Numbered from the stretch's first letter, positions 2,808-57,495 are shown. The stretch is DNA of 64,000 nt from an uncultured Acidobacteriaceae bacterium (GCA_963841125.1 CAWJBH010000010.1:161049-225048), one strand, 5' to 3'. Numbers and translations: made by a program. The notes: a model not told the origin generated them from the sequence alone.

Positions 2808-2814
2808 GTCTAGC

Positions 2815-2848
2815 GCCTTCCGCGCGGCGCGGAGGGCCTTTTTGTTTT
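2815..2848 (+). terminator. Rho-independent terminator after the permease
   Basis: 10-bp stem GCCTTCCGCG / CGCGGAGGGC (one G-U pair) with a 3-nt loop, followed by CTTTTTGTTTT. Confidence 0.75.
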
Positions 2849-2856
2849 ATAGTCAG

Positions 2857-2947
2857 TCGTTGGCGCTTCGTCGTTGGTCGTTGCGTCGCTAGGCACTCAT
2901 TTAAACATTTTCGACTACGACTCGACTAACGACCATGATAACGACTG
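2857..2947. repeat. Inverted arrays of a GTCGTTG-type heptamer around an AT-rich centre
   Basis: Left arm has GTCGTTG at 2856, 2870 and 2877 (period 7). Right arm carries CGAC/AACGAC units (2912-2945), less regular. Centre is cactcatttaaacatttt. The element ends 8 nt before the nnr ATG. Confidence 0.5.
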
Positions 2948-7679: not shown

Positions 7680-9566
7680 TTAACATTGCCGGTTCGTCGC
7701 GGGAATCTGCTGTGCGCTCCGCGATCAAGCTTGAGCCAGCGAGCGGAAGGCGGAAGCGGAATGTCGTGCCCTCCCCTTCGCTCGATTCAAATTCCACCGA
7801 GCCGTAGTGCCATTGCAGGATTTGGTAAGTCTGCGCCAGGCCAATGCCGTTGCCGTCCTTCCGGGTGGTGAAATAAAGTTCGAAAATCTTGTCCTGCACA
7901 TCCTGAGCAATGCCCACGCCTTGATCGCGGACTTCGGCGACCACCGCATCTTCCTCACGGCGCGCCGAGATCGTGAGTGGACCGCCGTCAGGCATGGCCA
8001 GGATTCCATTGAGCACCACGTTGAGCAGGGCTTGCTTCATGAAGTCGAGGTCTGCCTTGATGGGTAAGGGCTCTTTGGGCATGTCGCGCTTGATGGTGAC
8101 GCCGTGCTGCTCCGCATCAGGAGCGGCAAGCAGCGCCACGTCGTCGAGCACGCGGCGGAGATCCACTTCCTCCAGGCGAAGCTCGCGGGCTCGCATGAAG
8201 TCCACCAGAGTTTGCACCACGCGGTCGAGCCGGTGAATTTCGCTGCCGATGATGTCCATGTGACGCCGGGTATCAGGATCCAATTGCGCCAGCTTGTTCT
8301 GCAGGAGTTGCAAGTGGAGCACGATGGCATTGATGGGATTCTTCACCTCGTGGGCAACGCCGCCGGTCACGCGACCGCTGGCGGAGAGGCGGCGGGACAT
8401 CTCGATTTCGTCTCCGATGCGCCGGACGGACTCGGCATCGCGCATGATCAGCAGAGCGCCGATTTGAGTGCTTTTCTCCTGCACAAAATCCAGAGAAACC
8501 TGGACCCGCCTGCCGGCGGCGGCGACCAACTCGCGTTGCGAAAGCGGACGCCTGCGTTCAAAAGCTTCGAGCAGCGGCGCGCCGAGGGACGGTCAGCGGG
8601 AAAAAATTCTCGCGACCGGTTCTGCCCAGCAACTCAGCGCGCGGCCTGCCGAGGAAGCGCTCGACCGGGGCGCTCACCAGCACCACGCGGGAATCTCGCG
8701 TGAACAGCATCAGGCCATCCTGCAGCTTCGACATGAGCTGGTCCACGTTGTCTTTCAAGCGCGGAGAAAATTTCCCGGCTGTCGCGCATTTGCCGGCCCA
8801 GGTTGGCAATCTTCAGCGTGACCAGTCCGAGTTCGTCGTGTTCCGATTCGTCTCCCGGAAAGCGCCTCGGTGCGAACCAGAACTGACGTTATCCAAGATT
8901 GCGGCTGATCTCCTTGAGTGGTCCGAGAGCGAGATTGGACACGCCGGCAGCAAGCAGAAGCGAGGCGAAGATCGACGCAATCGAGAAATAGACCGCGTGC
9001 AGCAGGCGAGGCGTGATTTCGCTCTTGAGAAAGACCGTGGAAACACCAATGCGGATGGTGCCGAAAGGCGCTCCGTTCAATTGTAGCGGAGAAGGTGACG
9101 TCGTAAACTGTGGCGGGGCTGTACACCAGGCGAAGTTGCTCCCGGAAGCGGGCTGTCGTGACCGCGCGAAAGTCGGGACGCGGTGGCAACCTGCTTGCCT
9201 ACCAACTGAGGATTGGTATGCAGCAGCGCTTTCCCGTTCGCATCGACCACGGAGGCATCGTAGATGTAGGGCCAAAGCGCGACCGCGGATTCAAGATTGT
9301 TCAAAAGATTAGTATCCATCGGCAGGTATTCGGCAAGCGCCCGCCGCACCGCAACGGGATCATCGGTATCGATGCGAGTGCTGCTCAGATCGGGCAGATC
9401 GTTCTCGGCGAAGTAAGCCAGTTGCTGGGTCAGGCGGCTAGGCGCTTTCGTAGGCATTGGTGATGCGCTGACGAAGGAGCTGCGAGATATAGAGATAGGA
9501 GAACGCAGTCACCATCACGGTCACCATGAAGGTGATGCCGAGTCACGATGATGGCTTTACGTCGCA
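7680..9566 (-). CDS. Sensor histidine kinase (periplasmic sensor, HAMP, PAS, HisKA, HATPase), at least 5 frame switches; 3' end approximate
   Basis: Fragments in ORFs 9430, 9077, 8889, 8755, 8558 and 7210. MRRKAIIV start; TM region; PAS-like LQDGLMLFTRDSRVVLVSAPVERFLGR. H-box GGVAHEVKNPINAI, N-box LLNVVLNGILAM, G-boxes RDQGVGI and GNGIGLAQ. Confidence 0.8.
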
Positions 9567-9577
9567 TGGGAACAGGG

Positions 9578-9681
9578 CTGGTCAGTGAACAGTGGTCAGT
9601 GAGCGTAGTAAAGAGCAACGAACCGAGGACGTTCTTACTGATCACTCGCTGCCACTAGACCACTGACCACTGATTCACTGC
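9578..9681. repeat. Inverted GTGGTCA-heptamer arrays in the response-regulator / kinase spacer
   Basis: Left arm ggtcagtgaacagtggtcagtgagcg. Right arm cgctgccactagaccactgaccactgattcactgcc. The right arm overlaps the regulator stop codon, and the protein ends ...NQWSVV. Confidence 0.7.
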
Positions 9682-11077
9682 CCTGGCTTCCTCAGTTGCC
9701 GCGTCCGCGGCGGTGCTCCCGTACTCCTTAAGCTTATTATGCAGGGTTTTCAAGCTAATGCCGAGGATTTCCGCGGCCTTCGTCTTGTTATTGCTGGTGG
9801 ATTCCAAGGTCTTCAGGATGAGCATTTTTTCCGCCTCGCCGACGGTCGTGCCCACGCCCAGGCGCACTGCGTCCGGGTCATTGGCGGCCGCGCGCACCGG
9901 CGCGTGGCCGAATCCCGGAGGCAGATGTTTGGTTTCGATCATGCCGGTGTCGCAGACAATCACGGCGCGTTCAATCGTATTGCGCAATTCGCGGACGTTT
10001 CCCGGCCAGGAATAATTGTTAAACAGATTCATCACCGCTTCGCTCACAGCGGCAACCTTGCGGGAGTGCTTCGCGCTCATCTCCGACAGAAGAAGCTGCA
10101 CCAGATCGGCAATGTCTTCCTTATGTTCCCGCAGCGGAGGCATGTGGATGTTGAAGACGTTCAGCCGGTAATAGAGATCGTTGCGCAATTCACCGCTGGC
10201 CACAGCATCGTCTGGAACTTTGTTGGTCGCGGCCAGCACGCGCACGTCTACCGAGGTCTCCACTTTGCTTCCCAGCCGGCGCAACTTGTGGTCTTCGAGT
10301 ACGCGAAGTAACTTCGCCTGGGTTCCCACGGGCATCTCGCCAATTTCGTCGAGCAGGATGGTTCCGCCTTCGGCCAGCTCGAAGCAGCCGGTGCGCCGTT
10401 CCAGTGCTCCGGTGAAGGCGCCCTTTTCGTGGCCGAAGATCTCGCTTTCGATCAGCGTTTCTGGAATCGCGGCGCAGTTGATGGCGACGAAGGGCCGGTC
10501 GCGGCGGGGACTCAATTGATGGATGGTGCGGGCCACCAACTCTTTGCCCGTGCCGCTGGCTCCGGTGATCAGTACTGACGCGGTGCTGGGCGCAACCAGT
10601 TCGATGAGGCGGAAAATCTCCTGCATCTTGCGCGATGCTCCCTTGAGTTGGCCCAGGGAACCGGAATCCCGCAGCTTGCGGCGGGCGCTCTCCAGTTCGG
10701 CTCGCGTCCCAAGCAGCGCCGAGGCGTTCTGCAGCATGGTGCGCAGACGGTTCGTGTCGATTGGTTTGGTGATGTAGTCATAGGCTCCCATGCGCATGGC
10801 TTGCACCGCGCTATCGATGGTGCCCTGCGCCGTCACCAGAATTACGGCCATGGCCTGGGACTGCTCGCCCAACCGTTCGAGCAGCTCGATGCCGCCCATG
10901 CGCGGCATCTTGAGGTCCGTAACCACGATGGAGGGACTCCATTGCGCAGCTTTCTCCAGGCCATCCACGCCATCGCGTGCGGTTTCCGCCCGATACCCCC
11001 AGGAGGAAACCAACTCGGCCAGGCCCGGTGCGCTCGTTTTCTTCGTCCTCAACGATCAGTACTTTTTCGTGGCTCAT
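9655..11077 (-). CDS. Sigma-54-dependent response regulator (NtrC family), one frame switch near 11030
   Basis: MSHEKVLIVEDEENERTG (ORF 10811..11077) joins LAELVSSWGYRAETARDG...VVTDLKMPRMGG. AAA+ core VLITGASGTGKELVAR, GAFTGA and ESEIFGHEKGAFTG. C-terminal Fis-type HTH NKTKAAEILGISLKTLHNKLKEY. Confidence 0.9.
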
Positions 11078-21823: not shown

Positions 21824-22054
21824 ATGGCTCAGGTAAAGATCACAGTCCGTCCCAATGGCCCCTACCGCGTAGAAGCAGCTGAAGGCTCGGTTGAACTTGT
21901 CGACGTCAACGGAACCCAGTACGACCTCACCGGCAAGCCTGCGTTTTCTCTCTGCCGTTGCGGCGGCTCGGTGAACAAACCTTTTTGTGACGGTGCGCAC
22001 AGCCGCATCGGATTTCAAGGCGCAGAACTGGCGGTAAAGAAGGCTGAAAGCTAG
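21824..22054 (+). CDS. CDGSH iron-sulfur domain protein
   Basis: Intact 76-aa ORF with CRCGGSVNKPFCDGAH, the CDGSH 2Fe-2S signature. GGAGGA lies 8 nt upstream. Confidence 0.88.
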   Translation: MAQVKITVRPNGPYRVEAAEGSVELVDVNGTQYDLTGKPAFSLCRCGGSVNKPFCDGAHSRIGFQGAELAVKKAES

Positions 22055-22085
22055 AAGCGAGAAGCCAGAAGCCAAGAGCTCTCAC

Positions 22086-24013
22086 ATGAGCGACCTAAAC
22101 GACCGCGAACTGGGAATGAAGCGCAATATCACGCGCCGTGACTTCCTCAACGGCGTGGCTGTGACCGCGGGCGCTGCGCTCATGCCGTGGCAGGTGTTCG
22201 GCTGCGGGCGATGTCGATCCCGAAAAATCTCAGGACTACTATCCGCCCGCGCTCACCGGACTGCGGGGCAGTCACGCCGGCTCCTTCGATGCTGCGCACG
22301 CTTTGCGCGACGGCTCTTTCTGGGACTCGGCCGGTACGCCCCAAGACACAGGTGAAACCTACGACCTCGTGATCGTTGGAGGCGGCATCAGCGGCCTTTC
22401 GGCGGCGCACTTCTATCGCAAGCTGCAGGTGTGAACGCGCGCATTCTTATCCTCGACAACCATGACGACTTCGGGGGACACGCCAAGCGCAACGAGTTTC
22501 GGGTGGGCCAGCGAACTCTACTGGGCTACGGCGGAACGTACTCCATCGAGAGCCCGGAGCCTTATAGCGATGTCGCCAGGGGCGTGATTGAGGAATTGGG
22601 AATCGATGTAACCAGCTTCCCGAAATATCTGGAGAGAGATCTCTACGGTTCCATGGGAAGAGTTCCGAAAATCTTCTTCGACAAGGAAACTTTCGGCAGC
22701 GACAAGCTCGTGGACGATCCATACCCTTTTCCTGGCGGCGAGACTTACGATCTGGCAGTCGCCGGGTCCGATGCGTGGACGCATTTCATGGCCGAAGCCC
22801 CGATTGCGGAGCAGGCGCGTAAGGATATTTCGCGCTTATGCCGGGAGAAGAAAGATTATCTTCCCGGACTAAGTGGCGATGAGCAAAAGGCGCGTCTGGC
22901 GCGCATCAGCTATGCCCAGTTCCTGACCGAACAGGCGGGCGTGCATGCGGACGTTATCCGCCTCTACCAGACAATCTCTCAGCCTCTATTTGGTGTGGGC
23001 ATCGAAGCTGTCTCCGCGCTGGATGCAGCGGAGTCAGGCTATCCGGGCTTCAGCGGAATGGATATTGTCCCGGAAGGGCGCTGAGCCAACGAACGGAAAT
23101 ATTTCTTCCACTTTCCCGATGGCAACGCGAGCATCGCGCGGTTGCTCGTCCGCAAGCTGATCCCGGAGTCCATGCCGGGCAATTCGGCGACCGATGTGGT
23201 CACCGCCAAGTGCGAACTACGCCAAGCTCGATGAAAAAGGATCGCCCGTGCGCATCCGATTGAACAGCACGGCGGTGCGGGTGAAGCATCTGGGTGATCC
23301 AGCGCGGGCCACCGAAGTTGAGGTAGCCTACGCCCGCGGCGGCAAGGTGTATACGGTCAGAGCGAAGCACGCAGTCCTGGCCTGCTGGAACATGATGATT
23401 CCGTACCTGTGCGAAGACCTGCCGGATACTCAGAAAGAGGCGCTGGCCTTCGCGCAGAAGGTGCCGCTGCTTTATACCAATGTGCTGTTGCGCAACTGGA
23501 CTGCATTTCAGAAGCTGGGAGCGAATTCCATCTACGCACCCGGCGGCTACCACACGCACGTCGACCTGGACCTGCCGGTTAGCATCGGGGAGTATCGCTG
23601 CCCACGCACGCCCGACGAGCCAACTGTGGTGCACATGAGCAAGTCTCCTTGCCGCGCAGGCCGGCCGGCGCGGGATCAACACACCGCCGGCCGCATCGAA
23701 CTCTACAACACGACTTTTGAAACCATGGAGCGCAAGATTCGCGAACAGTTGCTCCGGACCCTTGGGCCGGGCGGTTTTGATCCTGCACGCGACATCCTGG
23801 CCATCACAGTCAACCGCTGGCCTCACGGCTACGCCTACGAGTACAGCAGCCTCTGGGACAAGTTTGTGCTGGAAGGCGGCGAGACGCCGTGTGAGCGCGC
23901 GCGGAAAACCTTTCGGACGGATCGCGATCGCGAACTCCGACGCCGGCGCTCTCGCTTATACAGATGAGGCGATCAATCAGGCTTGGCGGGCGGTGGGGGA
24001 GTTGAAGAGCTAG
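22086..24013 (+). CDS. Tat-exported NAD(P)/FAD-dependent amine oxidoreductase (spermidine dehydrogenase-like), at least 4 frame switches
   Basis: Twin-arginine signal NITRRDFLNGVAVTAGAALMP. Dinucleotide fold YDLVIVGGGISGLSAAHFY, then ILILDNHDDFGGHAKRNEF. The rest lies in ORFs 22431, 23194 and 23717, ending LAYTDEAINQAWRAVGELKS*. Confidence 0.7.
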
Positions 24014-25089: not shown

Positions 25090-26328
25090 TCAGTGGATCG
25101 TCTTCGTCTTGCGCGACATGTAATCCATCAGCAGGTATTGGCCTAGCGTATACGGGGTGGTGAAGTAGGCTTTGCCGCGGCACATCTCGGTTACTTTCTG
25201 GACGAATTGCACCAATCCATAATCTGACGCGAGCATGAAGGTGTTGATGAGGACGCCGGCGCGCTTGCACTTCGAGACTTCTTCCAGCGTCTGGCTCACT
25301 ACTAGCGGGTCGAGGCCGAAGGCGTTTTTGTAGATGCGTCCGTCTTCGAGAGTCAGGGCGGAGGGTTTGCCGTCGGTGATCATGACGATCTGCTTCATGT
25401 CTTTTCTTTGGCGCTGCAGGATTCTTTGCGCCAGGCGCAGGCCTTCGCGCGTGTTGGTGTAATAAGGGCCGACCTTGACGCGGGCTAGCTGCGAGAGCGG
25501 GACTTCTTCGGCGGAGTCGTGAAAGAGCACGAGCGAGAGCGAGTCGCCGGGATACTGCGTGCGGATCAGATGCGAGAGCGCCATGGCAACTTTTTTCGCG
25601 GGAGTGAAGCGGTCTTCGCCGTAGAGGATCATCGAGTGCGAGCAGTCGAGCATCAGCACCGTCGCGCAGGAAGATTGATACTCGCACTGGTGAACTTGCA
25701 GGTCGCGGTATTCGATGTTGAGCGGCAGCGCGAGGCCTTCGCGCTGGATCGCGCTCGAGAGCGTGGCGGTGATGTCGAGGTTGAGCGTGTCGCCGAACTC
25801 GTAGGTGCGGGAAGCGCCGCTGGCTTCGATGCCGGTGGCGAGGTCGCGGGTGTCGTGGCGTCCAAAGCTGGATTTGCCGAGCGAGCCGAGCAGATTGCGC
25901 AGCGATTTGAAGCCGAGGAAGTCGAGGCTCTTGTCGGTGATTTCGAATTTCGCTTGCTGCTGGTTTTCGCCGACCTGGCCGCCCACGCTGGATGGTCGCG
26001 ACGGGTCAGGCGGTTGGTCGATTGAGATGTAATCTTCCTGCTGCATGCGCTCGATCAGCTTTTCGATGAGTTCGTCGAGTTCACCGTCCGCCGCCATTTG
26101 CTGCAGGCGCTCGCGCATGTCTTCGTCGAACTGATCGCCTTCCATCAGAGCTTGTTCGATGGCGCGGCGAAGGTCGTCGAGAGTCTGCTCGCCCTCAGGC
26201 ATTTCGTACCACATGTCGCTCTGGAAGCCGCTCTGCAGCAGGTAGTCGGAGAGCGCGCCGAGCAGGTCTTCCAGGCTCATTTCGCCGGCGGGGTCGGGAA
26301 CGTATTTGGAGTAGCGGATGCGTTTCAT
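25090..26328 (-). CDS. VWA-domain protein (partner of the upstream AAA+ ATPase)
   Basis: Intact 412 aa. MIDAS-like [20 protein letters not shown] and FHDSAEEV fit a VWA fold. Acidic N-terminal region. Confidence 0.75.
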
Positions 26329-26331
26329 AAG

Positions 26332-26431
26332 CAGTGGTTAGTGGTCAGTGGTCAGTGAAATCAGTGGCCAGCAAGGCCTCACTGGCCGATTAGCTACTAC
26401 TACTAATCACTGACCACTAGCCACTGACCAC
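26332..26431. repeat. Inverted GTGGTCA-heptamer arrays filling the AAA+ / VWA spacer
   Basis: Left arm cagtggttagtggtcagtggtcagtga. Right arm tcactgaccactagccactgaccact, a near-perfect complement. Loop of about 47 nt. The element occupies essentially the whole 104-bp gap. Confidence 0.8.
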
Positions 26432-26432
26432 T

Positions 26433-27941
26433 CTAGTTAAACTGTCTTCTCTGCCGGTACGGTGGTTCTTCTTTCTCGAAACTCTTTTCGCGCTGCGGTT
26501 CGGGCTTTTTTTCTCCGGCTTTGAACACTCGTTCTTCATTGCGGCCGATGCGTTTGTGCGCGTGCAGGCCTTCGAGAATAAATTCCGCGGCGGAGACCTG
26601 CTGCTCGGGACTTTCTTTTGCGAGACACTTCAGCGGGCCGAGTTTGTCGATCAGGCCCTGAATCTCTTTCAGGTTTTCGAGAGCTTCCAGCGGCGGAGAC
26701 CGAATCCGACAACTGAATCTCACCGCCCAGGTCGAACCACTGCACGATCTGCTGCACGTTGGCGCCGGTGAAATATTCGTCGTAGGTCTTCGCGATGGCG
26801 GCGCGGATCAGTTCGCGGCCCACGTAGTCTGCGCCTTTCATCTCGCCTTCGTATTCGAGTTCGAGTTTGCCGGTGATCGCGGGCAGCGCGGCATAGACGT
26901 CGCTGACGCGGGGCACGACCAGTTTTTCGTCATTGCGCAGAGCGCGGCGCTCGGCGTTCGAGATGACGTTCTCCATGGCAGTGATCGGCAGGCGCTGGCT
27001 CACGCCGCTGCGCTTGTCGATTTTCTTGTCTTCGCGGGCGGCGAAGGCGATGCGCTCGATCACTTCCTGAATGTAGGTGGGCAGGTGCATCGCTTGCGCT
27101 TCGCCTTGACTGCGCGCTGGTCCAGGCTTCCTGCGCGGTGATGGCGATGCCTTCATCGACCGTTGCGGGATAGTGCGTGCGAATCTCGGAGCCGATGCGG
27201 TCTTTGAGCGGGGTGATGATTTTTCCGCGGGCGGTGTAGTCTTCGGGATTCGCGCTGAAAACGATGGCAACGTCAAGCGGGAGGCGAATGGGATAGCCCT
27301 TAATCTGCACGTCGCCTTCCTGCATGATGTTGAACAGGCCGACCTGAATTTTTCCGGCGAGGTCGGGAAGTTCGTTGATGGCGAAGATGCCGCGATTGGC
27401 GCGGGGCAGCAGGCCGTAGTGAACGGTGAACTCGCTCGAAAGTTCGTGACCGCCGCGGGCGGCTTTGATGGGGTCGATGTCGCCGATGAGGTCGGCGATG
27501 GTGACGTCGGGCGTGGCAAGTTTTTCCACGTAGCGATCGTCGGGCGTGAGATAGGCACTGGGAGTGTCGTCGCCGAGGCGCGCGACTTCTTCGCGGCAAC
27601 GGCGGCAGATAGGGGCGTAGGGATTGTCGCGAATCTCGCAGCCCGGCGAGGTAGGGCATGTGAGGATCGAGCAGCGTCGTCAGGGCGCGCAGGATGCGGC
27701 TTTTGGCCTGGCCGCGCAGGCCGAGCAGAATGAAATTGTGCCGCGAAAGAATAGCGTTCACGATCTGCGGCACGACCGTGTCTTCATAGCCGACGATGCC
27801 GGGAAAAATGCCGGAGTCGTCGTGGTCACGCAGGCGGGCGATGAGGTTGTCGCGGAGTTCATCCTTCACGCGGCGGGTGCGCAGGCGTTCTTCGGAAAAA
27901 GCACTGCGGCGCAATTCGCCTAGCGTGCGCGGAAGACACAT
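26433..27941 (-). CDS. AAA+ ATPase of the Mg-chelatase ChlI/BchI-like (sigma-54-interaction type) family, at least 4 frame switches
   Basis: [13 protein letters not shown]...[38 protein letters not shown] (Walker A-like). [11 protein letters not shown] (Walker B-like). [26 protein letters not shown]. Fragments in ORFs 27300, 26930, 26536 and 26433. Confidence 0.75.
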
Positions 27942-28088
27942 GAGGAACCCCCAGAGGAACTTCTCTGGATTATACGCGGAAGAGCGGGCTTCGGCTCGTT
28001 CGGGCTTCGGCCGCAACAATCGCTCAAGCGACAATCTGTCGCGCTGAGGGCTTTCGGTTTGCCGAAGCCCGAAGCCCGAAAGCCGCCC

Positions 28089-28793: not shown

Positions 28794-29581
28794 ATGGATC
28801 TTTCAGGGAAAGTTGTAGTGGTGACGGGCGCTTCCATGGGAATCGGGGAAGCGATCGCGAAGATTTTTGCCGATCACGGCGCCAGCGTGGTGATGCTCTC
28901 GCGCGATGCGGGCCGGGTGGACGCGGCGCGCGGGCGCGTAGGGCAGGGCGAGCGAACGCTGGCGATGGCTTGCGACGTGCGGCACCGCGAGGATGTTGAC
29001 CGCGCGATCGGGCTGACGCTGCATCATTTCAAGAGAATCGATGTTTGGGTGAACAACGCGGGGCATGGGCTGCTGGATTCGGTGGCGCAGATGGATATGG
29101 CGGCGTGCCGGGAAATGTTCGACACGAATTTGTTTGGAGCGGTGGGGGCGATGCAGGCGGTGATTCCGGTGATGCGGCAGCAGGGCGGCGGGACGATTAT
29201 CAATATATCGAGCGTGGCCGGGCATATTCCGATCCCGTTCCATGCGGCTTACAGCGCGACCAAGTTTGCGCTGAATGCGATGGGCAAGGCTGCCGGCGTG
29301 GAGTTGAAGAAAGATGGGATTCATGTGCTGACGGTTTGTCCCGGGATATGTGCGGACGGCGTTTGGCAAGAATGCGATTCAGGGGAATGAGTTGAAGCGA
29401 GTGCGTCCGGATCGGTGAGGGGGATTACTGCCGAGCGGGTGGCGCGGGCCACGCTGCGGGGATATTTGAAGCGCAAGAGGGAAGTGATTGTGCCCTGGAC
29501 CATGTACGTGCCGCAGAAGATTTATCAGATTTTCCCGGCTGTGGTGGAGTGGGCGATGGGGAGGATGGCGGGCGTAAGTGA
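28794..29581 (+). CDS. Short-chain dehydrogenase/reductase, at least 2 frame switches; 3' end approximate
   Basis: VVVVTGASMGIGEAIA (TGxxxGIG), VNNAG, ISSVAG, YSATKFAL (YxxxK). Continues as CPGYVRTAFGKN after a shift, then ORF 29415. Confidence 0.8.
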
Positions 29582-29612
29582 GCTTGTAACACAGGACACT
29601 GGGTCACAGGTC

Positions 29613-29927
29613 TTACGAATTACCCAACTCCGCCAGCATGGCTTCCATCTCGCCCTGCGCGTGGAGGTTGCCGGTGCGGCGGGCGGAGGCAATGCCGTCG
29701 GTGAGCATGGTCTTTGGCTTCGGCGATTCGGTCGGCGCGCGCCAGGGTTTGGGCGGCCATGAAGTAGCCAGGAGTGTAGTCGGGACTGGTCTTGAGCAGG
29801 AGGAGAATTCGGCAAGCGAACGATCAAAGTCTCCCTGCTTGGAATATTCCATCGCCAATCCGTAGCGGGCGAAGGCGTCGTTCGGATTCTGAGTGAGGAC
29901 GTCGTTGAGAGCGGCGATGCGGTCCAT
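29613..29927 (-). CDS. Small TPR-like protein; the ORF stays open but appears to hide a compensating pair of frame switches
   Basis: MDRIAALNDVLTQNPNDAFARYGLAMEYSKQGDFDRSLAEF (TPR-like) and the C-terminal GNLHAQGEMEAMLAELG. The middle SSCSRPVPTTLLATSWPPKPW is low-complexity. The alternative frame gives TSPDYTPGYFMAAQTLARADRIAEAK. Confidence 0.5.
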   Translation of the reverse strand: MDRIAALNDVLTQNPNDAFARYGLAMEYSKQGDFDRSLAEFSSCSRPVPTTLLATSWPPKPWRAPTESPKPKTMLTDGIASARRTGNLHAQGEMEAMLAELGNS

Positions 29928-37697: not shown

Positions 37698-37791
37698 GAG
37701 GACTGCCGTCCCGGTAGTCTAATCGAGCGAAGCCCGAGGTGTATGTGAGGACAGCCGCCCTCGGCTGTCCAATCGAGCGAAGCTCGACGCC
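37698..37791. repeat. Two tandem copies of the GGACAGCCGCCCTCGGCTGTCC-AATCGAGCGAAGC hairpin repeat
   Basis: gaggactgccgtcccggtagtctaatcgagcgaagcccgagg, then gaggacagccgccctcggctgtccaatcgagcgaagctcgacgcc. Same family as 21697-21737 and 55138-55177. Confidence 0.75.
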
Positions 37792-51300: not shown

Positions 51301-51325
51301 GACTTCCCCAAGTGTTGAATTTGCT

Positions 51326-51500
51326 CGTGTGGAGCGGACACTCCTGTCCGCTGCTTTTGACGTTGCCTTTGCCCTTGCTTTTGAAGTTGCCCGTGTGGAG
51401 CGGACACTCCTGTCCGTTGCTTTTGACTTTGACTTTGCTTTTGAATTTGAGTCGAATCAAAGCGGCACAACCGTGGAAGAGCGGCGCTTCAGCGCCGCGT
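51326..51500. repeat. Block of hairpin repeats: two AGCGGACA-CTCC-TGTCCGCT units plus one GCGGCGC-TTCA-GCGCCGC unit
   Basis: cgtgtggagcggacactcctgtccgctgcttttgac at 51326 and a near copy at 51391. ccgtggaagagcggcgcttcagcgccgcgtaa ends at 51500. The same modules occur at 51995-52032 and 55993-57390. Confidence 0.8.
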
Positions 51501-52223: not shown

Positions 52224-54704
52224 CTACGCCCCACTCCGAATCCGCATCCCATAAAACGACCGGTAAACAAAGAAGAACGAAACCAGAAAGAAACCCAAAG
52301 CCAGCACATTGGTGATCATCGGCCCCTGGTTATTGGTAAGCGTAACCGCCAACTCCACCGCCAGCAATCCAAACAAGGTAGTGAACTTGATGACCGGATT
52401 CAAAGCCACCGACGAGGTATCCTTGAACGGATCGCCCACCGTATCGCCAATCACAGTAGCGTCGTGCAGCGGAGTCCCTTTCTGCTTCATCTCCACTTCC
52501 ACAATCTTCTTCGCGTTGTCCCAGGCTGCACCGGCGTCGGCCATAAAGATTGCCTGATAGAGACCGAAGATCGCAATGGAAATCAGATAGCCGATGAAGA
52601 AGAACGGCTCCACGAAGGCGAAAGCCAGCGTGCCGAAGAACACCGCGATAAAGATGTTCAACATCCCCTTCTGCGCATACTTCGTGCAGATCTCGACCAC
52701 CTTCTTGCTGTCCGCCACCGAAGCCTTCACCACGCCATCCAGCTTGATGTTCGCTTTGATGAACTCAACCGCCCGGTAGGCCCCGGTAGTAACCGCCTGC
52801 GTAGAAGCTCCAGTGAACCAGTAAATCATCGCGCCGCCCGTAATCAATCCAAGAAAGAACGGAGCGTGCAATAGCGAGAGCTTGTTTACGTCCGCGGTAA
52901 GGCCGCTGGTGAGCGCCATGATGATGGAAAAAATCATCGTGGTAGCGCCCACCACAGCCGTGCCGATCAACACCGGCTTGGCCGTGGCCTTGAACGTGTT
53001 CCCCGCGCCATCATTGGCCTCGAGCAGGTATTTCGCCCGCTCGAAGTTCACTCCCATGTTGTAATCCTTCTTGATTTCCGCCTCCACGTTCGGCACCGAC
53101 TCGATCAAAGAAAGTTCATACACCGATTGCGCATTGTCGGTAACCGGCCCATAAGAATCCACCGCAATGGTCACCGGACCCATGCCCAGAAATCCAAAAG
53201 CCACCAGCCCAAAAGCAAACACCGCCGGAGCCAGCATCGTCGCCGCCCCCGCCAGTCCCATCGTGCTGAAGTAATAAGCCACCGACATCAGCAGGACCAT
53301 CGACAGCCCCAGGTAGTAGCACGAAAAATTTCCCGCCACAAACCCCGAAAGAATTCCCAGCGACGCCCCGCCTTCCTCCGCCGAAGTAACTACTTCCTTC
53401 ACATGCCGCGATTCCGTCGAAGTAAACGACTTCACCAGCTCCGGAATCAGCGCTCCCGCCAAGCGTTCCGCAGGAAATAATCACCGCCAGTTTCCACCAC
53501 TGAGAAATGTCCCCACCCAGCTCCGGAATAATGAAGTAAGACACCAGAAACGTCAGCCCGATCGAAACAATCGAAGTCAGCCATACCAGCGTCGTAAGCG
53601 GCGTCTCGAAATTCATTTCATTCGCGCTGCCAAACCGCGCCTTCGCGATAGTCGCATTCAGGAAGTACGAAACCGCGCTCGCCACCAGCATCATCACGCG
53701 CATCACAAAAATCCAAACCAGCAACTGCACTTGCACCGTAGGACTCTTCACCCCCAGCAGAATAAAAGTAATCAGCGCCACGCCCGTGACCCCATAAGTC
53801 TCAAACCCGTCCGCCGAAGGCCCCACCGAATCCCCAGCGTTGTCGCCAGTGCAATCGGCAATCACGCCCGGATTCCGCGCGTCGTCTTCCTTGATCTTGA
53901 AAACAATCTTCATCAAGTCCGACCCAATATCGGCAATCTTCGTAAAAATGCCGCCCGCAATCCGCAGCGCCGCCGCCCCTAAAGATTCGCCAATGGCAAA
54001 TCCAATAAAGCAAGGCCCGGCATAATCGCCCGGAACGAACAGTAAAATGATCAGCATGATCAGCAATTCCACGCTGATCAGCATCATGCCAATGCTCATG
54101 CCCGGCCTCCAGCGGAATCTGATAAACCGGAAACGGTTTCCCCGGCAAAGCCGCAAACGCGGTCCGCGAATTCGCAAACGTGTTCACCCGAATGCCAAAC
54201 CACGCCACGCCATAGCTTCCGCCAATCCCCACCAGGCTGAATCCCAAAATAATCGCAACCCGCATCGCTTCCATATGCTGCAGCACGCCAAAATAAAGCA
54301 GAATGATGACCGCAATAAACGCCCACAGCAGCAAAATGAATTTCCCCTGCGTCACCAGATAGGTTTTGCAAGTCTCATAAATCAGCTCTGAAATCTCCCG
54401 CATCGACCGATGCACCGGAAGATTCTTCAGCCGCATATAAATGACCATGCCAAACCCCAGCCCGAAGATGCAGAACAGAATCCCAATCATCAACAGCCGA
54501 TGCCCGTCGATCGCCCACTGCAAAAACGGCACCGACGAAAGGTCAGGAAGTTTCAGCGAAGCCTCGCCGCCGGCCTCGCCAGGGCTGGGCCCAAGCCCGC
54601 CCGGCGCCCAATCCCACGAGCGCCGCCAGTCCCAAAGTCTTCCCCACCACTCCGGACGCCGCGCGGCATCCTTCAAACGCAGCAGTAGCCAGCCAAGTAC
54701 GCAT
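52224..54704 (-). CDS. hppA: Membrane-bound H+-translocating pyrophosphatase, at least 3 frame switches
   Basis: GGAGG 7 nt upstream of the ATG at 54704. GGIFTKIADIGSDLMKIV, DDARNPGVIADCTGDNAGDSVGPSADGFETYG, DSYGPVTDNAQ, NTFKATAKP, AGAAWDNAKK, and GDTVGDPFKDTSSVALNPVIKF. Confidence 0.93.
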
Positions 54705-55029
54705 AATGAGTCCTCCAAATGATTTCGGTTTTTTCAGGAATACTGAAGCGGTGTTGTGTGATTGTCATCCTGAGCAAGCGTTCCGGCGACGCCGCGAAGG
54801 ATCTGAGCGAGCCGCGCGAAGTGTCGCGTTCGTTGCGACACAATAATCGCGCGTTTGGCTCGCTTCCCTGAATTCCGAACACGCTTCCACCGCAAAACAA
54901 GAACGGAGTGTTGGAGCTTGGCCGCGTCGGAGGTAAAGCGCCCGAGCCGGAAAATAAACTCCGCCCGGACACACGACCTCAAAACAGGCGTTTATAACAC
55001 TTTCGCAACAAACGGGTCAATCGGGGAAC

Positions 55030-55292
55030 CAGTGGTCAGTGGTCAGTGGTCAGTGGACAGAAAAAACAGGCAGCAGTATCAAGCACCAGAGATCCTAAAT
55101 GTGGGAACAGGATGTGGGGAATGGGAACAGGATGTGGGGACAGCCGCCCTCAGCCGTCCGGCCGAGCAAAGCTCGCCGTTTTGTGACTTACCCTCCCAAC
55201 CCCGAAATCCACCACGGAGATCTGCTCCGCCCCCCAGCGCTTTTCACTGACCACTGACCACTGACCACTGACCACTAATCACTGACCACTGC
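55030..55292. repeat. Composite element: (GTGGTCA)n array, 185-bp interior, inverted (TGACCAC)n array
   Basis: Left cagtggtcagtggtcagtggtcagtggacag (55030-55060). Right cactgaccactgaccactgaccactgaccactaatcactgaccact (55245-55292). The interior holds a 19-bp direct repeat tgggaacaggatgtgggga x2 (55102-55140) and a GGACAGCCGCC hairpin (55138-55177). Confidence 0.8.
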
Positions 55293-55750
55293 CTACCCCA
55301 GCCACTCCCAAGCCTCCCGATACCCCTCCCACCGCGGATTCCGGCTCTTCAAATCCGGAAAAAATCTCAAACTCTTCACCCCTACAAAAGCCGCGATCGG
55401 CAGCAGATACCAGACTTCTTTCTCTTCCGCAATCACATGCGCCGCCAGCACATCAATATCGCTCGCCGTATAAGTTTTCTTCCCCTCGCCCCGCGTAGAA
55501 TAAACCGGCTGCACATCATATCCCCCGCGATACAACCGCCCCGTACCCTTAACCTGCACCCGCAAAACCGCCCGCCCGGCCGCGCCCACACGATAAAGTC
55601 ACACTTCTCGCTGTCTCCCCAAGGCACCGCCAACCCAAACCCCAACGCCTGCGCCCGCACCAAAAACGCCCCCTGCGACAACTCCCCCATCCGCTTAGGA
55701 TTCCCCCAAGCCCGCTCCCACCACCGCCCATCCGGATCCTCCACCGCCAT
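55293..55750 (-). CDS. Small stand-alone PD-(D/E)XK nuclease (group-I-intron-endonuclease-like family), one frame switch near 55575; start uncertain
   Basis: NPKRMGELSQGAFLVRAQALGFGLAVPWGDSEKCDFIVW joins VLRVQVKGTGRLYRGGYDVQ...YTASDIDVLAAHVIAEEKEVWYLLPIAAF...LRFFP. D...(Q/E)VK nuclease core. Confidence 0.6.
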
Positions 55751-55992: not shown

Positions 55993-57495
55993 CCCGTGTG
56001 GAGCGGACACTCCTGTCCGCTGCTTTTGACGTTGATTTTGACTCTGCCTTTTGACTTTGATCCAGACTGCAGGGGAGCGAAGATTCGTATCAGCGTATGC
56101 CTTCAGGCATACCGAAAGCCAACACCACCGTGGAAGAGCGGCGCTTCAGCGCCGCGCAAAGCCACCCTAAATTAACCCTTGTCATTCCGAACAGGGCCAA
56201 AGGCCCGGTGAGGAACCTGCTGTTGACTTTCGCCGCCACCCCGCACCCGTGTAGAACGGACACTCCTGTCGTTGCCTTTGACGTTGATTTTGCCTTCGAC
56301 TGCGACCGCACCCTCCTAGACGGGGTGCCCCATTTCTCGCGTCCTTTGCGAGAAGTGGGAACCACGGATGCCCGCAGCGCCGTTCTTGAAGTTGATGCTG
56401 CCTTTGACCTGGAAAACTCGTATCAGGATATGCCTTCACGCATACCGAACCCCAACACCCCCGCGGAAGAGCAGCGCTTCAGCGCCGCATAAAGACACCC
56501 TAAATTAACCTTTGTCATTCCGAACAGGGCCGCAAGGCCCGGTGAGGAACCTGCTGTTGACCTTCGCCACCACCGCGCCGCCCGCGTGGAACGGACACTC
56601 CGTCAGTTGCTTTTGACGTTGATTCAGGATTCGTATCAGCGTATGCCTTCAGGCATACCGAAAGCCAACACCACCGTGGAGAGCGGCGCTTCAGCGCCGC
56701 GCAAAGCCACCCTAAATTAACCCTTGTCATTCCGAAAAGGGCCAAAGGCCCAGTGAGGAACCTGCTGTGATGTTCGCCGCCACCCGCACCCGTGTAGAAC
56801 GGACACTCCTGTCGTTACCTTTGACGTTGATTTTGCCTTCGACTGCGACCGCACCCTCCTAGACGGGGTGCCCCATTTCTCGCGTCCTTTGCGAAAAGTG
56901 GGAACCACGGATGCCCGCAGCGCCGTTCTTGAAGTTGATGCTGCCTTTGACCTGGAAAACTCGTATCAGGATATGCCTTCACGCATACCGAACCCCAACA
57001 CCCCCGCGGAAGAGCAGCGCTTCAGCGCCGCGTAAGGCCCACCAAACCCCAGCCGCAAAGCGGCGAAAGAATGCAGCCCACGGCGCAAGCCGTGGGTAAA
57101 GCAGAAAAAGAGAAACGAGCCCCGCAGGGGCGGCAGAGAAATCGCCCGTGTGGAACGGACACTCCTGTCCATTACCCTTGACGTTGACTTTGAATTCGAC
57201 CGCACCCTGATCAGAAGAGGGTGCCCCATCTTTCGCGTCTTTTGCGAAAGGTGGGAACCACGGAAGCCCGCAGCGCCGTTCTTGATGTTGATGTCGCTTT
57301 TGACCTTGAACAATTCGTATCAGGGTATGCCTTCAGGCATATCGAAACCCGGCACCACCGTGGAAGAGCGGCGCTTCAGCGCCGCGTAAGGCCCACCAAA
57401 CCCTAGCCGCAAAGCGGCGAAAGAATGCAGCCCACGGCGCAAGCCGTGGGTAAAGAGAAAAGGGAACAACCAAGTCCCGTAGGGACGGAAGAGAC
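55993..57495. repeat. 1.5-kb ORF-free mosaic of nested and tandem hairpin repeats
   Basis: Near-identical direct copies at 56082-56488 and 56628-57031 (offset 546 to 543 nt, about ten differences by eye). A diverged third module lies at 57145-57390. gcccaccaaaccc.agccgcaaagcggcgaaagaatgcagcccacggcgcaagccgtgggtaaag is duplicated at 57036 and 57389. All listed ORFs here translate repeats. Confidence 0.85.

What the first reader, a model, noticed from the sequence alone, without database searches (positions are those of the whole stretch)
9578..9681. GTGGTCA-heptamer palindrome in the operon spacer between a sigma-54 regulator and its kinase, supplying the regulator's C-terminus
Arrays of the 7-nt unit GTGGTCA and its complement form two arms of about 26-35 nt separated by about 45 nt. 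The right arm overlaps the last codons and stop of the regulator, whose protein ends ...NQWSVV. The kinase ATG follows at 9566. A structure of this size between two cotranscribed genes would be expected to affect mRNA processing, stability or relative expression, like REP/BIME elements. The heptad-array construction is not something I can assign to a described family.
Basis: seen in the sequence. Interest (0 to 1): 0.65.

Follow-up and report, generated by a model that had tools for sequence, protein, structure and literature searches.

The report
Seven-base-repeat hairpin between two operon genes
The feature is real: a hairpin built from 7-base repeats between a regulator gene and its kinase gene, one copy of a common, fast-changing repeat class already known from cyanobacteria and Xanthomonas, so it is a new example, not a new kind.

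Summary
The palindrome is real. On the coding (-) strand, (CAGTGGT)n and (ACCACTG)n arms at 9573-9685 fold at -65.9 kcal/mol (z = -5.45).

It is not unique. The window holds two more hairpins with the same unit, two with other 7-nt units, and one solitary 7-nt array.

(CAGTGGT)n arrays occur in at least 120 loci from several phyla. The paired hairpin form is found mainly in Acidobacteriota. All 41 pairs read G/T-rich arm first.

These pairs have no target-site duplications and no shared core. Of the 40 scored for context, they abut stop codons and avoid divergent spacers (25 tandem, 10 convergent, 2 divergent).

Thirteen related regulator-kinase spacers carry the element at the same place, with varying unit number and centre. 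More distant relatives carry other 7-nt units there, and many carry nothing.

Best reading: a heptanucleotide-repeat hairpin of the cyanobacterial STRR / Xanthomonas GGGAATC kind. It grows by slippage and sits where REP elements sit. It folds so that the upstream stop and downstream start lie together at the stem base. Its function is inferred, not shown, and it is dispensable.

The "QWSVV" C-terminus is unreliable. The window is full of 1-nt insertions, and relatives end at CAG-TGA in the first unit.

Verdict: a new member of a known kind, of moderate interest.

The parts
9652..9685 (-). 5' arm of the hairpin as read on the mRNA. It is G/T-rich and made of heptads: CAGGGCAGTGAAT CAGTGGT CAGTGGT CTAGTGG. 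It contains the regulator's stop codon.
   Evidence: sequence; period 7, 3.0 units at 9652-9673; pairing with 9573-9601.
9602..9651 (-). Centre of the palindrome. It holds degenerate heptads (CAGCGAG TGATCAG TAAGAAC) that form an inner imperfect stem closing on a 7-nt loop.
   Evidence: minimum-free-energy and centroid structures. One search shows the centre is partly alignable only with the closest relatives, for example L132.
9573..9601 (-). 3' arm of the hairpin. It is A/C-rich and made of heptads: CACTGAC CACTGTT CACTGAC CAG CCCTG. It ends 5 nt before the kinase ATG.
   Evidence: (period 7, 3.3 units at 9579-9601).
9655..9657 (-). Stop codon (TAG) of the NtrC-type regulator as the window reads. 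It lies inside the 5' arm.
   Evidence: Orthologues whose DNA was read stop earlier, at CAG-TGA in the first unit.
9565..9567 (-). Start codon of the histidine kinase (MRRKAIIV...). It is predicted to be base-paired at the foot of the extended stem.
   Evidence: conserved ATGCGACG[C/T]AAA in orthologues. One search gives the structure; the region -12..+3 is 80% paired, with 93% of the pairing partners in the regulator's last codons.
9686..9699 (-). Outer extension of the stem into the regulator's last codons. GGAA at 9691-9688 pairs with UUCC at 9572-9569.
9655..11077 (-). Sigma-54-dependent NtrC-family response regulator (receiver, AAA+ and HTH_8 domains). Its frame is broken by an extra base near 11028.
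7700..9567 (-). Cognate histidine kinase (HisKA and HATPase_c domains). It is broken by several single-base insertions, and its 3' end is only approximate.
26330..26434 (-). Second hairpin with the same unit, between an AAA-type ATPase gene and a vWA-domain gene. The upstream stop (TAA 26439-26437 or TAG 26435-26433) abuts the 5' arm. The 3' arm ends 3 nt before the ATG at 26328.
55030..55291 (-). Third hairpin with the same unit. Its arms have 4.4 and 6.7 units around a centre of about 185 nt that contains other repeats. The 5' arm begins 1 nt after the stop of a 98-aa ORF (55293-55589). It lies upstream of the H+-pyrophosphatase gene.
2853..2947 (+). Heptad hairpin with a different unit (GTCGTTG ... 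CGACTAA/CGAC), between an amino-acid permease gene (followed by its terminator) and yjeF. Relative L121 has only 1-2 units at this site.
27984..28088 (.). Heptad hairpin with a third unit (GGGCTTC ... GAAGCCC). The same spacer in relative L067 holds a GTCGTTG-type hairpin instead.

Best explanation
This is one copy of a family of heptanucleotide-repeat hairpins. They are of the same kind as cyanobacterial STRR hairpins and the Xanthomonas GGGAATC inverted pairs. They populate the transcribed spacers of this Terriglobia (Acidobacteriota) genome and its relatives.

Each element has two inverted arrays of a 7-nt unit, always with the G/T-rich array first and the A/C-rich array second on either strand. 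The centre is variable.

**Shown.**
- The element has sat in this regulator-kinase spacer across a clade of related species. The number and spelling of its units, and its centre, have changed over that time.
- It has no target-site duplication and no conserved core, and no transposase was seen beside the arrays examined.
- At another window locus the array has visibly grown from 1-2 units in a relative to 4.6 units here.

**Inferred.**
- It arises and changes mainly by replication slippage in a 7-nt register, with the two arms kept complementary.
- It persists because it folds out of the way. In the polycistronic mRNA it forms a long stem-loop whose base brings the regulator's stop codon and the kinase's start codon together, much as in a short spacer.
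- In this copy the stem also buries the kinase AUG against the regulator's last codons. Kinase translation would then depend on ribosomes finishing the regulator (translational coupling and a low kinase:regulator ratio).
- The stem-loop could also protect the upstream mRNA from 3' exonucleases, as REP elements do.

Many orthologous operons lack the element, so any such effect is modulatory, not essential.
For: **Anatomy and non-randomness:**

**A family, not a singleton.**
- Three same-unit copies, two other-unit hairpins and one solitary array in 64 kb.
- At least 120 loci with (CAGTGGT)n in public genomes. The paired form is mostly in Acidobacteriota, including an isolate where arrays lie between atp operon genes.

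**Fixed polarity.**
- 38:1 in public loci plus 3 of 3 in the window.
- 14 of 16 elements when scored without regard to unit.

**Not cut-and-paste.**
- Apparent target-site duplication lengths among the 40 pairs with enough flank to test: 0 nt in 26, 1 nt in 13, 3 nt in 1. That is chance level.
- Only 3 centres of the 41 pairs are related.
- Genes flanked by arrays are housekeeping genes.

**Residence with turnover.** Thirteen orthologous spacers align with the element in the same place, with variable unit counts and partly homologous centres.

**In-situ growth.** L121 against the window at the permease-yjeF spacer.

**Position.**
- 25 tandem, 10 convergent and 2 divergent contexts.
- Stop codons lie about 3 nt from the 5' arm. 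Start codons lie 0-7 nt from the 3' arm in at least 10 of 26 tandem cases.
- Convergent and divergent gene pairs are equally frequent on a circular chromosome. A 10:2 split gives a one-sided binomial p of 0.019 (my arithmetic from the counts).

**Burial of the kinase start:**

**Literature for the same kind and the same proposed roles:** PMC2670836, PMC4692102, PMC4679880.
Against: **No functional data exist.**

**Tests for RNA-level selection were negative or inconclusive.**
- Sense and antisense folds are equally stable across orthologues.
- An arm pairs with arms of other elements about as well as with its own partner (own -52.1, foreign -50.1 kcal/mol, permutation p = 0.085).
- Burial of the kinase start by the regulator's codons is strong in the window copy but not general. 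It is absent in L121, L129 and L134, and mean accessibility barely differs between long and short spacers (0.42 against 0.45).

**Slippage alone leaves things unexplained.**
- The same unit recurs at unlinked loci.
- The same spacer holds a different unit family in a relative whose flanks are 85-89% identical (window 27984-28088 against L067).
- The fixed polarity has no explanation. Self-structure of the G/T-rich arm does not account for it.

**Window quality.** The window is indel-ridden, so the exact stop position in this copy is uncertain.
Confidence: 0.6

Rival explanations
1. A REPIN- or MITE-like non-autonomous mobile element. On this view, heptad-array hairpins are copied to new stop-codon-proximal sites by an enzyme encoded elsewhere in the genome (for example a RAYT/IS200-type HUH transposase, which leaves no target duplication). 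Each unit spelling would then be one element family.
For: - The same unit and build occur at three unlinked window loci and at many loci in relatives.
- Unit families are shared between genomes at different loci. GTCGTTG is at window 2853 and in L067.
- An orthologous spacer holds different families, or nothing, in relatives with 85-89% flank identity.
- The strict polarity is what terminal inverted repeats would give.
- REPINs likewise lack target duplications and sit in extragenic space (PMC3116915).
Against: - There are no sharp ends and no conserved core or size class. Arms vary from 2 to 7 or more units, and only 3 centres of 41 are related.
- Arms are tandem heptads, not a REP unit that is itself a palindrome.
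- The element is vertically inherited at the regulator-kinase spacer with gradual change.
- In-situ growth is seen at the permease-yjeF spacer.
- Genes bracketed by arrays are housekeeping genes, not transposases.
Confidence: 0.2
2. An operator array. On this view the repeated heptads are binding sites for a trans-acting RNA-binding protein or small RNA that controls translation of the downstream gene. This was proposed for TAACTGA repeats upstream of start codons in Beggiatoaceae.
For: - The A/C-rich arm abuts the downstream ATG (0-7 nt away) with no Shine-Dalgarno sequence in many copies.
- There is a precedent hypothesis in PMC4679880.
- The reverse complement of TAACTGA (TCAGTTA) resembles units seen here, such as TCAGTGG and TCAGTTC. 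This is my own comparison of units.
Against: - The unit spelling at the same spacer differs between lineages: CAGTGGT, GTTCTCA, GGTTTCA, GGTCTCA, CGATTGC and others.
- Several unrelated units coexist in one genome.
- Ten of 40 pairs lie between convergent genes, where there is no downstream start codon.
- In the hairpin, the proposed site would be double-stranded.
Confidence: 0.08
3. An intrinsic transcription terminator or attenuator between the regulator and the kinase.
For: - It is a long, stable stem-loop at the 3' end of a gene.
- The family is enriched at gene 3' ends and in convergent spacers.
- Flanks are mildly T-rich: a mean of 2.5-3.2 T in the first 8 nt, against 1.7 expected.
Against: - No terminator-like site is found at 9300-9900, and the 3' arm here is followed by GUUCCCAUG, not a U-tract.
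- Only 2 of 26 tandem flanks and 4 of 20 convergent flanks have at least 5 T in 8 nt.
- At window 2809-2848 a canonical terminator sits immediately before a heptad hairpin, so the hairpin is not the terminator there.
Confidence: 0.05
4. A chance palindrome or an assembly artefact of an error-prone assembly.
For: The window carries many single-base indels.
Against: - Shuffle controls are never reached.
- The same element is at the same spacer in independent assemblies from ENA, NCBI and JGI, including short-read assemblies and isolate genomes.
Confidence: 0.02

Closest known systems
Cyanobacterial STRR sequences (short tandemly repeated repetitive heptanucleotides), including the hupS-hupL intercistronic STRR hairpins
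   Same: - 7-nt units in tandem, dispersed through the genome and non-coding.
- Able to form a hairpin in the spacer between co-transcribed genes.
- Function unknown, with transcript stabilisation or translational coupling proposed (PMC2670836).
- From my memory of Mazel et al. 1990, one STRR unit (TTGGTCA) differs from GTGGTCA by a single base. I could not verify this in the held library.
   Different: - The host phylum is Acidobacteriota (also Planctomycetota, Chloroflexota and others) rather than heterocystous cyanobacteria.
- The unit spelling differs.
- Here the inverted-pair form with fixed polarity, tight against the stop codon, is the rule. Nostoc arrays are mostly unpaired (PMC4692102).
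Xanthomonas GGGAATC heptamer repeats (Rehm et al. 2015, PMC4692102)
   Same: - Intergenic heptamer arrays of 2-26 units.
- 70-75 cases per genome of two arrays close together in 'convergent' orientation, G-rich first on each strand. That is the same polar inverted-pair build.
- Position is conserved between related species while length varies.
- The arrays are transcribed.
   Different: - The Xanthomonas units are G-quadruplex-forming, and that was the authors' proposed structure. CAGTGGT has no G-tracts.
- The host differs.
- No turnover of units between lineages was reported there.
REP / BIME / REPIN elements of proteobacteria
   Same: - Repeated, extragenic, palindromic and transcribed.
- Placed at 3' ends of genes and inside operons, and rare between divergent genes.
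- Form stem-loops.
- From my own knowledge, REPs stabilise upstream mRNA, and REPs within about 15 nt of a stop codon reduce expression through ribosome stalling and tmRNA (Liang, Rudd and Deutscher 2015). That paper is not in the held library.
   Different: - REPs are fixed 20-40-nt units with a conserved consensus, and they are linked to a RAYT transposase (PMC3116915).
- Here the arms are variable-length tandem heptads with no fixed consensus length, and no RAYT link was found.
TAACTGA heptamer direct repeats of marine Beggiatoaceae, cyanobacteria and Bacteroidetes (MacGregor 2015, PMC4679880)
   Same: - Heptamer arrays lie within a few nucleotides upstream of start codons, in regions without canonical ribosome-binding sites.
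- The distribution across phyla is scattered.
- The complement TCAGTTA resembles TCAGTGG and TCAGTTC.
   Different: - Those are almost all direct repeats (169 direct sets against 1 inverted set), so they do not form hairpins.
- They are not tied to stop codons.

Membership tests
Heptanucleotide long simple-sequence repeats / STRR-type hairpins | Head-to-tail tandem copies of a 7-nt unit (about 3 or more) | tested here: met
   - Tandem Repeats Finder gives period 7 with 3.3 and 3.0 units at the finding, and up to 6.7 units at 55245-55291.
- Strict period-7 segments number 5 against 0.2 in shuffles. Periods 8-11 give none.
Heptanucleotide long simple-sequence repeats / STRR-type hairpins | Non-coding and dispersed at many loci in the genome | tested here: met
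   - At least 5 hairpins and 1 solitary array lie in intergenic spacers of the 64-kb window.
- A whole-genome count was not possible.
Heptanucleotide long simple-sequence repeats / STRR-type hairpins | Two arrays in inverted ('convergent') orientation able to form a stem-loop, as described for hupS-hupL STRRs and Xanthomonas pairs | tested here: met
   - (z = -5.45).
- 41 pairs with a G/T-rich first arm against 1 apparent exception.
Heptanucleotide long simple-sequence repeats / STRR-type hairpins | Array length varies between related genomes at a conserved position | tested here: met
   - Alignment of 13 orthologous spacers.
- L121 against the window at the permease-yjeF spacer.
Cyanobacterial STRR in the strict sense (STRR1-3) | Cyanobacterial host and the published unit sequences | tested here: not met
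   - The closest proteins are named Candidatus Sulfotelmatobacter (Acidobacteriota).
- The unit is CAGTGGT. The exact string was not found in the searched literature.
REP / REPIN | Repeated, extragenic, palindromic, at 3' ends of genes or within operons | tested here: met
   (25 tandem, 10 convergent, 2 divergent; stop codon about 3 nt away).
REP / REPIN | Fixed-length REP unit with a conserved consensus; a REPIN is two such units at a conserved spacing | tested here: not met
   Arms are 2 to 7 or more heptads. The distance between arms ranges from 7 to 374 nt, and centres are unrelated in 38 of 41 pairs.
REP / REPIN | Association with a RAYT (Y1 transposase) gene flanked by the repeats | not testable with these tools
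   - Only 64 kb of the genome is available.
- Genes bracketed by arrays in the fetched loci are atpA, atpG, an aldehyde dehydrogenase and a response regulator, judged from their N-terminal sequences.
- The window's ORFs were not all scanned for transposase domains.
MITE | Target-site duplication flanking terminal inverted repeats | tested here: not met
   Apparent duplication lengths among the 40 pairs with enough flank to test: 0 nt in 26, 1 nt in 13, 3 nt in 1.
MITE | Conserved internal sequence and size within a family | tested here: not met
   An all-against-all BLAST of centres relates only L001, L077 and L113 to each other.
Intrinsic terminator | G+C-rich stem with a short loop, followed by a U-tract | tested here: not met
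   - No site is found at 9300-9900.
- The tail after the 3' arm is GUUCCCAUG.
- Only a minority of family members have T-rich tails.
Any Rfam RNA family | Covariance-model match at or above the gathering score | tested here: not met
   - The gathering-threshold scan of the window finds nothing here.
- The permissive scan of 9450-9800 gives only a chance mir-181 hit at 19 bits against a gathering score of 45.5.

The most novel reading that the evidence does not exclude
Polar heptad-array hairpins could be a distinct class of operon 'punctuation' spanning several phyla, with its own unknown way of spreading.

On this reading, unit families (CAGTGGT, GTCGTTG, GGGCTTC and others) are written into, and replace each other at, sites next to stop codons by a dedicated enzyme. 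They are then kept because the stem base bridges the upstream stop to the downstream start, giving termination-reinitiation coupling across a long spacer.

The G/T-first polarity would ensure that the C-rich arm is never exposed as a Rho loading site.

This would give a mechanism and a function to heptamer repeats, which were first described in 1990 (my memory of Mazel et al.; not verified here) and whose function was still called unknown in the papers read here.
Probability: 0.12. Interest if true: 0.7.

Novelty: new member of a known kind. Interest (0 to 1): 0.35.

Why it matters
Heptanucleotide repeats are the commonest long simple repeats in many bacterial genomes. The papers read here (2009 and 2015) still called their function unknown.

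This window and its relatives offer a tractable comparative set:
- the same operon spacer with the hairpin, with a differently spelled hairpin, or empty;
- a strict arm polarity;
- a stop/start-bridging geometry.

These turn vague proposals (transcript stability, translational coupling) into specific experiments. On present evidence, however, this copy is an ordinary and dispensable member of that class. It is not a new system, and it does not reliably contribute protein sequence.

Tried and rejected
1. **Sense against antisense folding.** I compared fold energies across about 70 orthologous spacers, looking for G-U pairs that favour the mRNA strand. There was no consistent bias among the heptad hairpins (differences from -11.7 to +10.5 kcal/mol).

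2. **Own against foreign arm pairing.** I tested whether the two arms of an element co-evolve. Own -52.1, foreign -50.1 kcal/mol, p = 0.085. This is inconclusive.

3. **Self-structure of the G/T-rich arm as the cause of polarity.** There was no general difference between unit x6 and its complement x6, with either RNA or DNA parameters.

4. **Target-site duplications and conserved cores.** Neither was found.

5. **Terminator scan and T-tract count.** Not terminator-like at this copy, and only weakly so in the family.

6. **Rfam.** Nothing at either the gathering or the permissive threshold.

7. **Transposases between paired arrays.** Only housekeeping genes were found.

8. **Literature search for the exact repeat string and for Acidobacteria heptamer repeats.** Nothing relevant.

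9. **Verifying the STRR unit sequences and the REP/stop-codon/tmRNA paper.** Neither is in the held library. Both are cited from memory only.

10. **Accessibility of the kinase start in long against short spacers.** The difference was negligible overall (0.42 against 0.45). The coupling model therefore rests on geometry and on this copy's fold, not on a family-wide signal.

Full report
**1. The observation**

On the coding (-) strand the region reads 5'-CAGGGCAGTGAAT CAGTGGT CAGTGGT CTAGTGG ...centre... CACTGAC CACTGTT CACTGAC CAG CCCTG-3'.

Repeat and structure calls:
- Tandem Repeats Finder gives period 7 at 9579-9601 (3.3 units) and 9652-9673 (3.0 units).
- The repeat finder gives complementary arms of 16 nt (88%) and 12 nt (100%).
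- RNA folding of 9560-9700(-) gives -65.9 kcal/mol against -43.6 +/- 4.1 for shuffles, z = -5.45.
- The centre is also largely paired, leaving a 7-nt loop.
- The stem continues outward: GGAA in the regulator's last codons pairs with UUCC just before the kinase AUG, and the AUG is in the stem.

The motif is far above chance. There are 19 matches to CAGTGGTCAGTG (up to 2 mismatches) against 3.3 expected.

Two coordinate points:
- The regulator's stop (TAG, 9657-9655) is inside the 5' arm.
- The kinase ATG is at 9567-9565.

**2. It is not a singleton**

Those 19 matches fall in three places: the finding, 26332-26433 and 55030-55291. All three have (CAGTGGT)n first and (ACCACTG)n second. Their centres are unrelated (about 50, 50 and 185 nt).

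The window also holds hairpins built from other 7-nt units:
- GTCGTTG/CGACTAA at 2853-2947;
- GGGCTTC/GAAGCCC at 27984-28088;
- a solitary (GAAGCCA)n array abutting the ATG at 22086.

With strict criteria, period-7 segments number 5 against 0.2 in shuffles. Periods 8-11 give none.

**3. Distribution and architecture elsewhere**

The hosts include:
- Acidobacteriota (Acidobacteriaceae, Terracidiphilus, Pyrinomonadaceae and isolate AB60);
- Planctomycetota, Chloroflexota and Verrucomicrobiota;
- some cyanobacteria, Bacteroidales and one Streptomyces.

In these loci I found 196 arrays, 77 of them in inverted pairs no more than 400 nt apart. Most of the pairs whose host I could read are in Acidobacteriota. 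Long solitary arrays dominate in Chloroflexota and Planctomycetota.

Polarity was 38:1. The one exception is two neighbouring elements with a gene between them. With the window copies that makes 41 pairs reading 5'-(CAGTGGT)n...(ACCACTG)n-3' on either strand. Scored without regard to unit, 14 of 16 elements have the G/T-rich arm first.

Tests against a cut-and-paste origin:
- Apparent target-site duplications, among the 40 pairs with enough flank to test, are at chance: 0 nt in 26, 1 nt in 13, 3 nt in 1.
- Only three centres of the 41 pairs are related.
- Genes bracketed by arrays are ordinary ones, such as atpA and atpG in isolate AB60.

Context of the 40 pairs scored:

| Context | Pairs |
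|---|---|
| Tandem genes | 25 |
| Convergent genes | 10 |
| Divergent genes | 2 |
| Unresolved | 3 |

- The upstream stop codon typically lies about 3 nt from the 5' arm.
- In at least 10 of 26 tandem cases the downstream ATG lies 0-7 nt from the 3' arm, often as ...CCACTG(C)TTATG with no Shine-Dalgarno sequence.
- Convergent and divergent gene pairs are equally frequent on a circular chromosome. A 10:2 split is a one-sided binomial p of 0.019 (my arithmetic).

This is the placement known for REP elements.

**4. History at this locus**

The regulator has many close orthologues (86-96% identity), some named Candidatus Sulfotelmatobacter. I fetched 87 orthologous loci.

In 13 of them the element lies at exactly the same place. 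The arms are alignable, the unit number and spelling vary (CAGTGGT, CAGTGAT, CAGTGGC), and the centres are homologous only among the closest relatives.

More distant relatives carry hairpins of other heptads in the same spacer:
- GTTCTCA (L195)
- GGTTTCA (L200)
- GGTCTCA (L207)
- CAGGTCT (L202)
- CGATTGC (L158)
- TTAGCTx (L180)

Some have other palindromic repeats nested in the loop (L136, L202). Many orthologues have a plain spacer of 14-50 nt (L126, L135, L142-L145, L149, L176). The element is therefore long-resident, fast-changing and dispensable.

Two further comparisons:
- At the permease-yjeF spacer, L121 has 1-2 GTCGTT units where the window has 4.6. This is growth in place.
- At window 27984-28088, relative L067 (85-89% identical flanks) has a GTCGTTG hairpin where the window has GGGCTTC. 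L067 also has a CAGTGGC hairpin where the window (about 29575-29625) has none. Some replacement or dispersal process therefore also exists.

**5. The C-terminus claim**

Orthologues have a variable acidic tail of 11-25 residues after ...HNKLKEY. None of the 120 ends in QWSVV, and 26 end in Q. The orthologues whose DNA I read end at CAG-TGA or CAG-TAA, which is itself the first CAGTGAx unit.

The window reads through that TGA in another frame. The window's regulator and kinase contain many frame-breaking single-base insertions relative to L121 and L128:
- near 11028 in the regulator;
- near 9543, 9435, 9094, 8896, 8850, 8756 and 8618 in the kinase.

Other genes are also split, for example the H+-pyrophosphatase gene.

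One base fewer in the G-run at 9681-9683 would give ...EEARQ-TGA. The tail may therefore be an artefact, and it cannot be taken as a biological contribution of the element.

**6. How it probably works**

*Shown.* It is a heptad-repeat palindrome, placed like a REP element, with the stop and start codons at its foot. It is inherited vertically with turnover of its units.

*Inferred: origin and persistence.*
- It grows and shrinks by slippage in a 7-nt register.
- It is tolerated in operon spacers because the hairpin loops out and restores the closeness of the stop to the start.

*Inferred: effects in this copy.*
- The kinase's initiation region (-12..+3) is about 80% paired, and 93% of its partners lie in the regulator's last codons.
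- Ribosomes finishing the regulator would therefore open it. This is translational coupling, and it would keep the kinase at or below the regulator's level.
- A REP-like barrier to 3' exonucleases, or a slowing of termination, is also plausible.

*Limits of the functional inference.*
- There is no sense-strand folding bias.
- There is no significant arm-arm co-evolution.
- There is no family-wide burial of the start codon.
- There is no terminator signature at this copy.

I put about 0.6 on the identity and origin, and about 0.3 on any specific regulatory effect.

**7. Comparison with what is known**

- Heptanucleotides are the most abundant long simple repeats in many prokaryotes, and polymerase slippage has been proposed as the cause (Mrazek 2007, via PMC4679880).
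- Cyanobacterial STRR 7-bp repeats form hairpins between hupS and hupL, with stability or coupling roles proposed (PMC2670836).
- Xanthomonas has 70-75 convergent inverted pairs of GGGAATC arrays per genome. Their position is conserved and their length varies between species (PMC4692102).
- TAACTGA repeats sit just upstream of start codons in Beggiatoaceae (PMC4679880).
- REPINs differ in having fixed REP units and RAYT partners (PMC3116915).

No paper found in the held library describes the CAGTGGT unit or heptad hairpins in Acidobacteria. Rfam has no match.

**8. Verdict**

This is a new member of a known kind.

As far as my searches go, the following are new:
- the host range;
- the strict polarity across different units;
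- the abutment to stop codons;
- the replacement of unit families at orthologous spacers.

These make it a useful lead on an old open question, but this copy is not a new system. Interest: 0.35.

Noticed in passing
window 7700-11077 (-), 52224-54718 (-) and elsewhere: Many genes are broken by single-base insertions relative to close relatives. Examples are the regulator near 11028, the kinase near 9543, 9435, 9094, 8896, 8850, 8756 and 8618, and the H+-pyrophosphatase gene, which is split over three frames. This points to either an error-prone assembly or widespread pseudogenisation.
   Followed up: partly
window 26330-26434, 55030-55291, 2853-2947, 27984-28088, 22048-22074: There are four more heptad-array hairpins, two with the CAGTGGT unit and two with other units. 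There is also a solitary (GAAGCCA)n array ending about 12 nt before the ATG (22086) of a gene with a Tat-type signal (RRDFL).
   Followed up: yes
window 56789-57461; 57051-57096 and 57405-57450 (-): Two copies of the Rfam Acido-Lenti-1 RNA (48.7 bits each) lie inside a 354-nt tandem duplication. A related 66-nt tandem repeat at 51315-51438 shares the GGACACTCCTGTC and TTGACGTTGAC motifs.
   Followed up: no
window 55136-55154 and 37747-37765; L019, L025, L188: A separate dispersed palindromic motif, GGGGACAGCCGCCCTC(R)GC, occurs twice in the window. One copy lies inside the centre of the third heptad hairpin, next to a 20-nt x2 tandem at 55102-55140. The motif also occurs in other Acidobacteriaceae loci and fills the regulator-kinase spacer of L188.
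   Followed up: partly
L136, L156, L202 (regulator-kinase spacers): Another palindromic repeat family (...GCGCGGCTT[TC]AGCCGCGCC...GGGC[CT]TTAGCCCC...) fills the regulator-kinase spacer of L156. In L136 and L202 it is nested between the heptad arms, so hairpin loops may be insertion hot spots.
   Followed up: no
L031:6972-7756: In a deltaproteobacterial MAG, seven CAGTGGT arrays of 26-43 nt lie on the same strand at spacings of about 103-211 nt. They look like a larger tandem repeat that embeds the heptads.
   Followed up: no
L039:376-3338 (Acidobacteria bacterium AB60, an isolate): Heptad arrays occupy the spacers flanking atpA and atpG in the ATP synthase operon. The elements therefore sit inside highly expressed essential operons.
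   Followed up: partly
regulator orthologues, tail codons about 30-40 nt upstream of the kinase ATG (e.g. L130, L131, L142): The otherwise variable acidic tail keeps a G-K-E-E motif encoded by GGCAAGGAGGAA, which looks like a strong Shine-Dalgarno sequence. When a hairpin is present, it would bring this motif close to the kinase AUG.
   Followed up: no
window 2809-2848: A canonical terminator-like hairpin with a T-run (GCCTTCCGCGCGGCGCGGAGGGCCTTTTTGTTTT) follows the amino-acid permease gene. It directly precedes the GTCGTTG heptad hairpin and is conserved in L121.
   Followed up: partly
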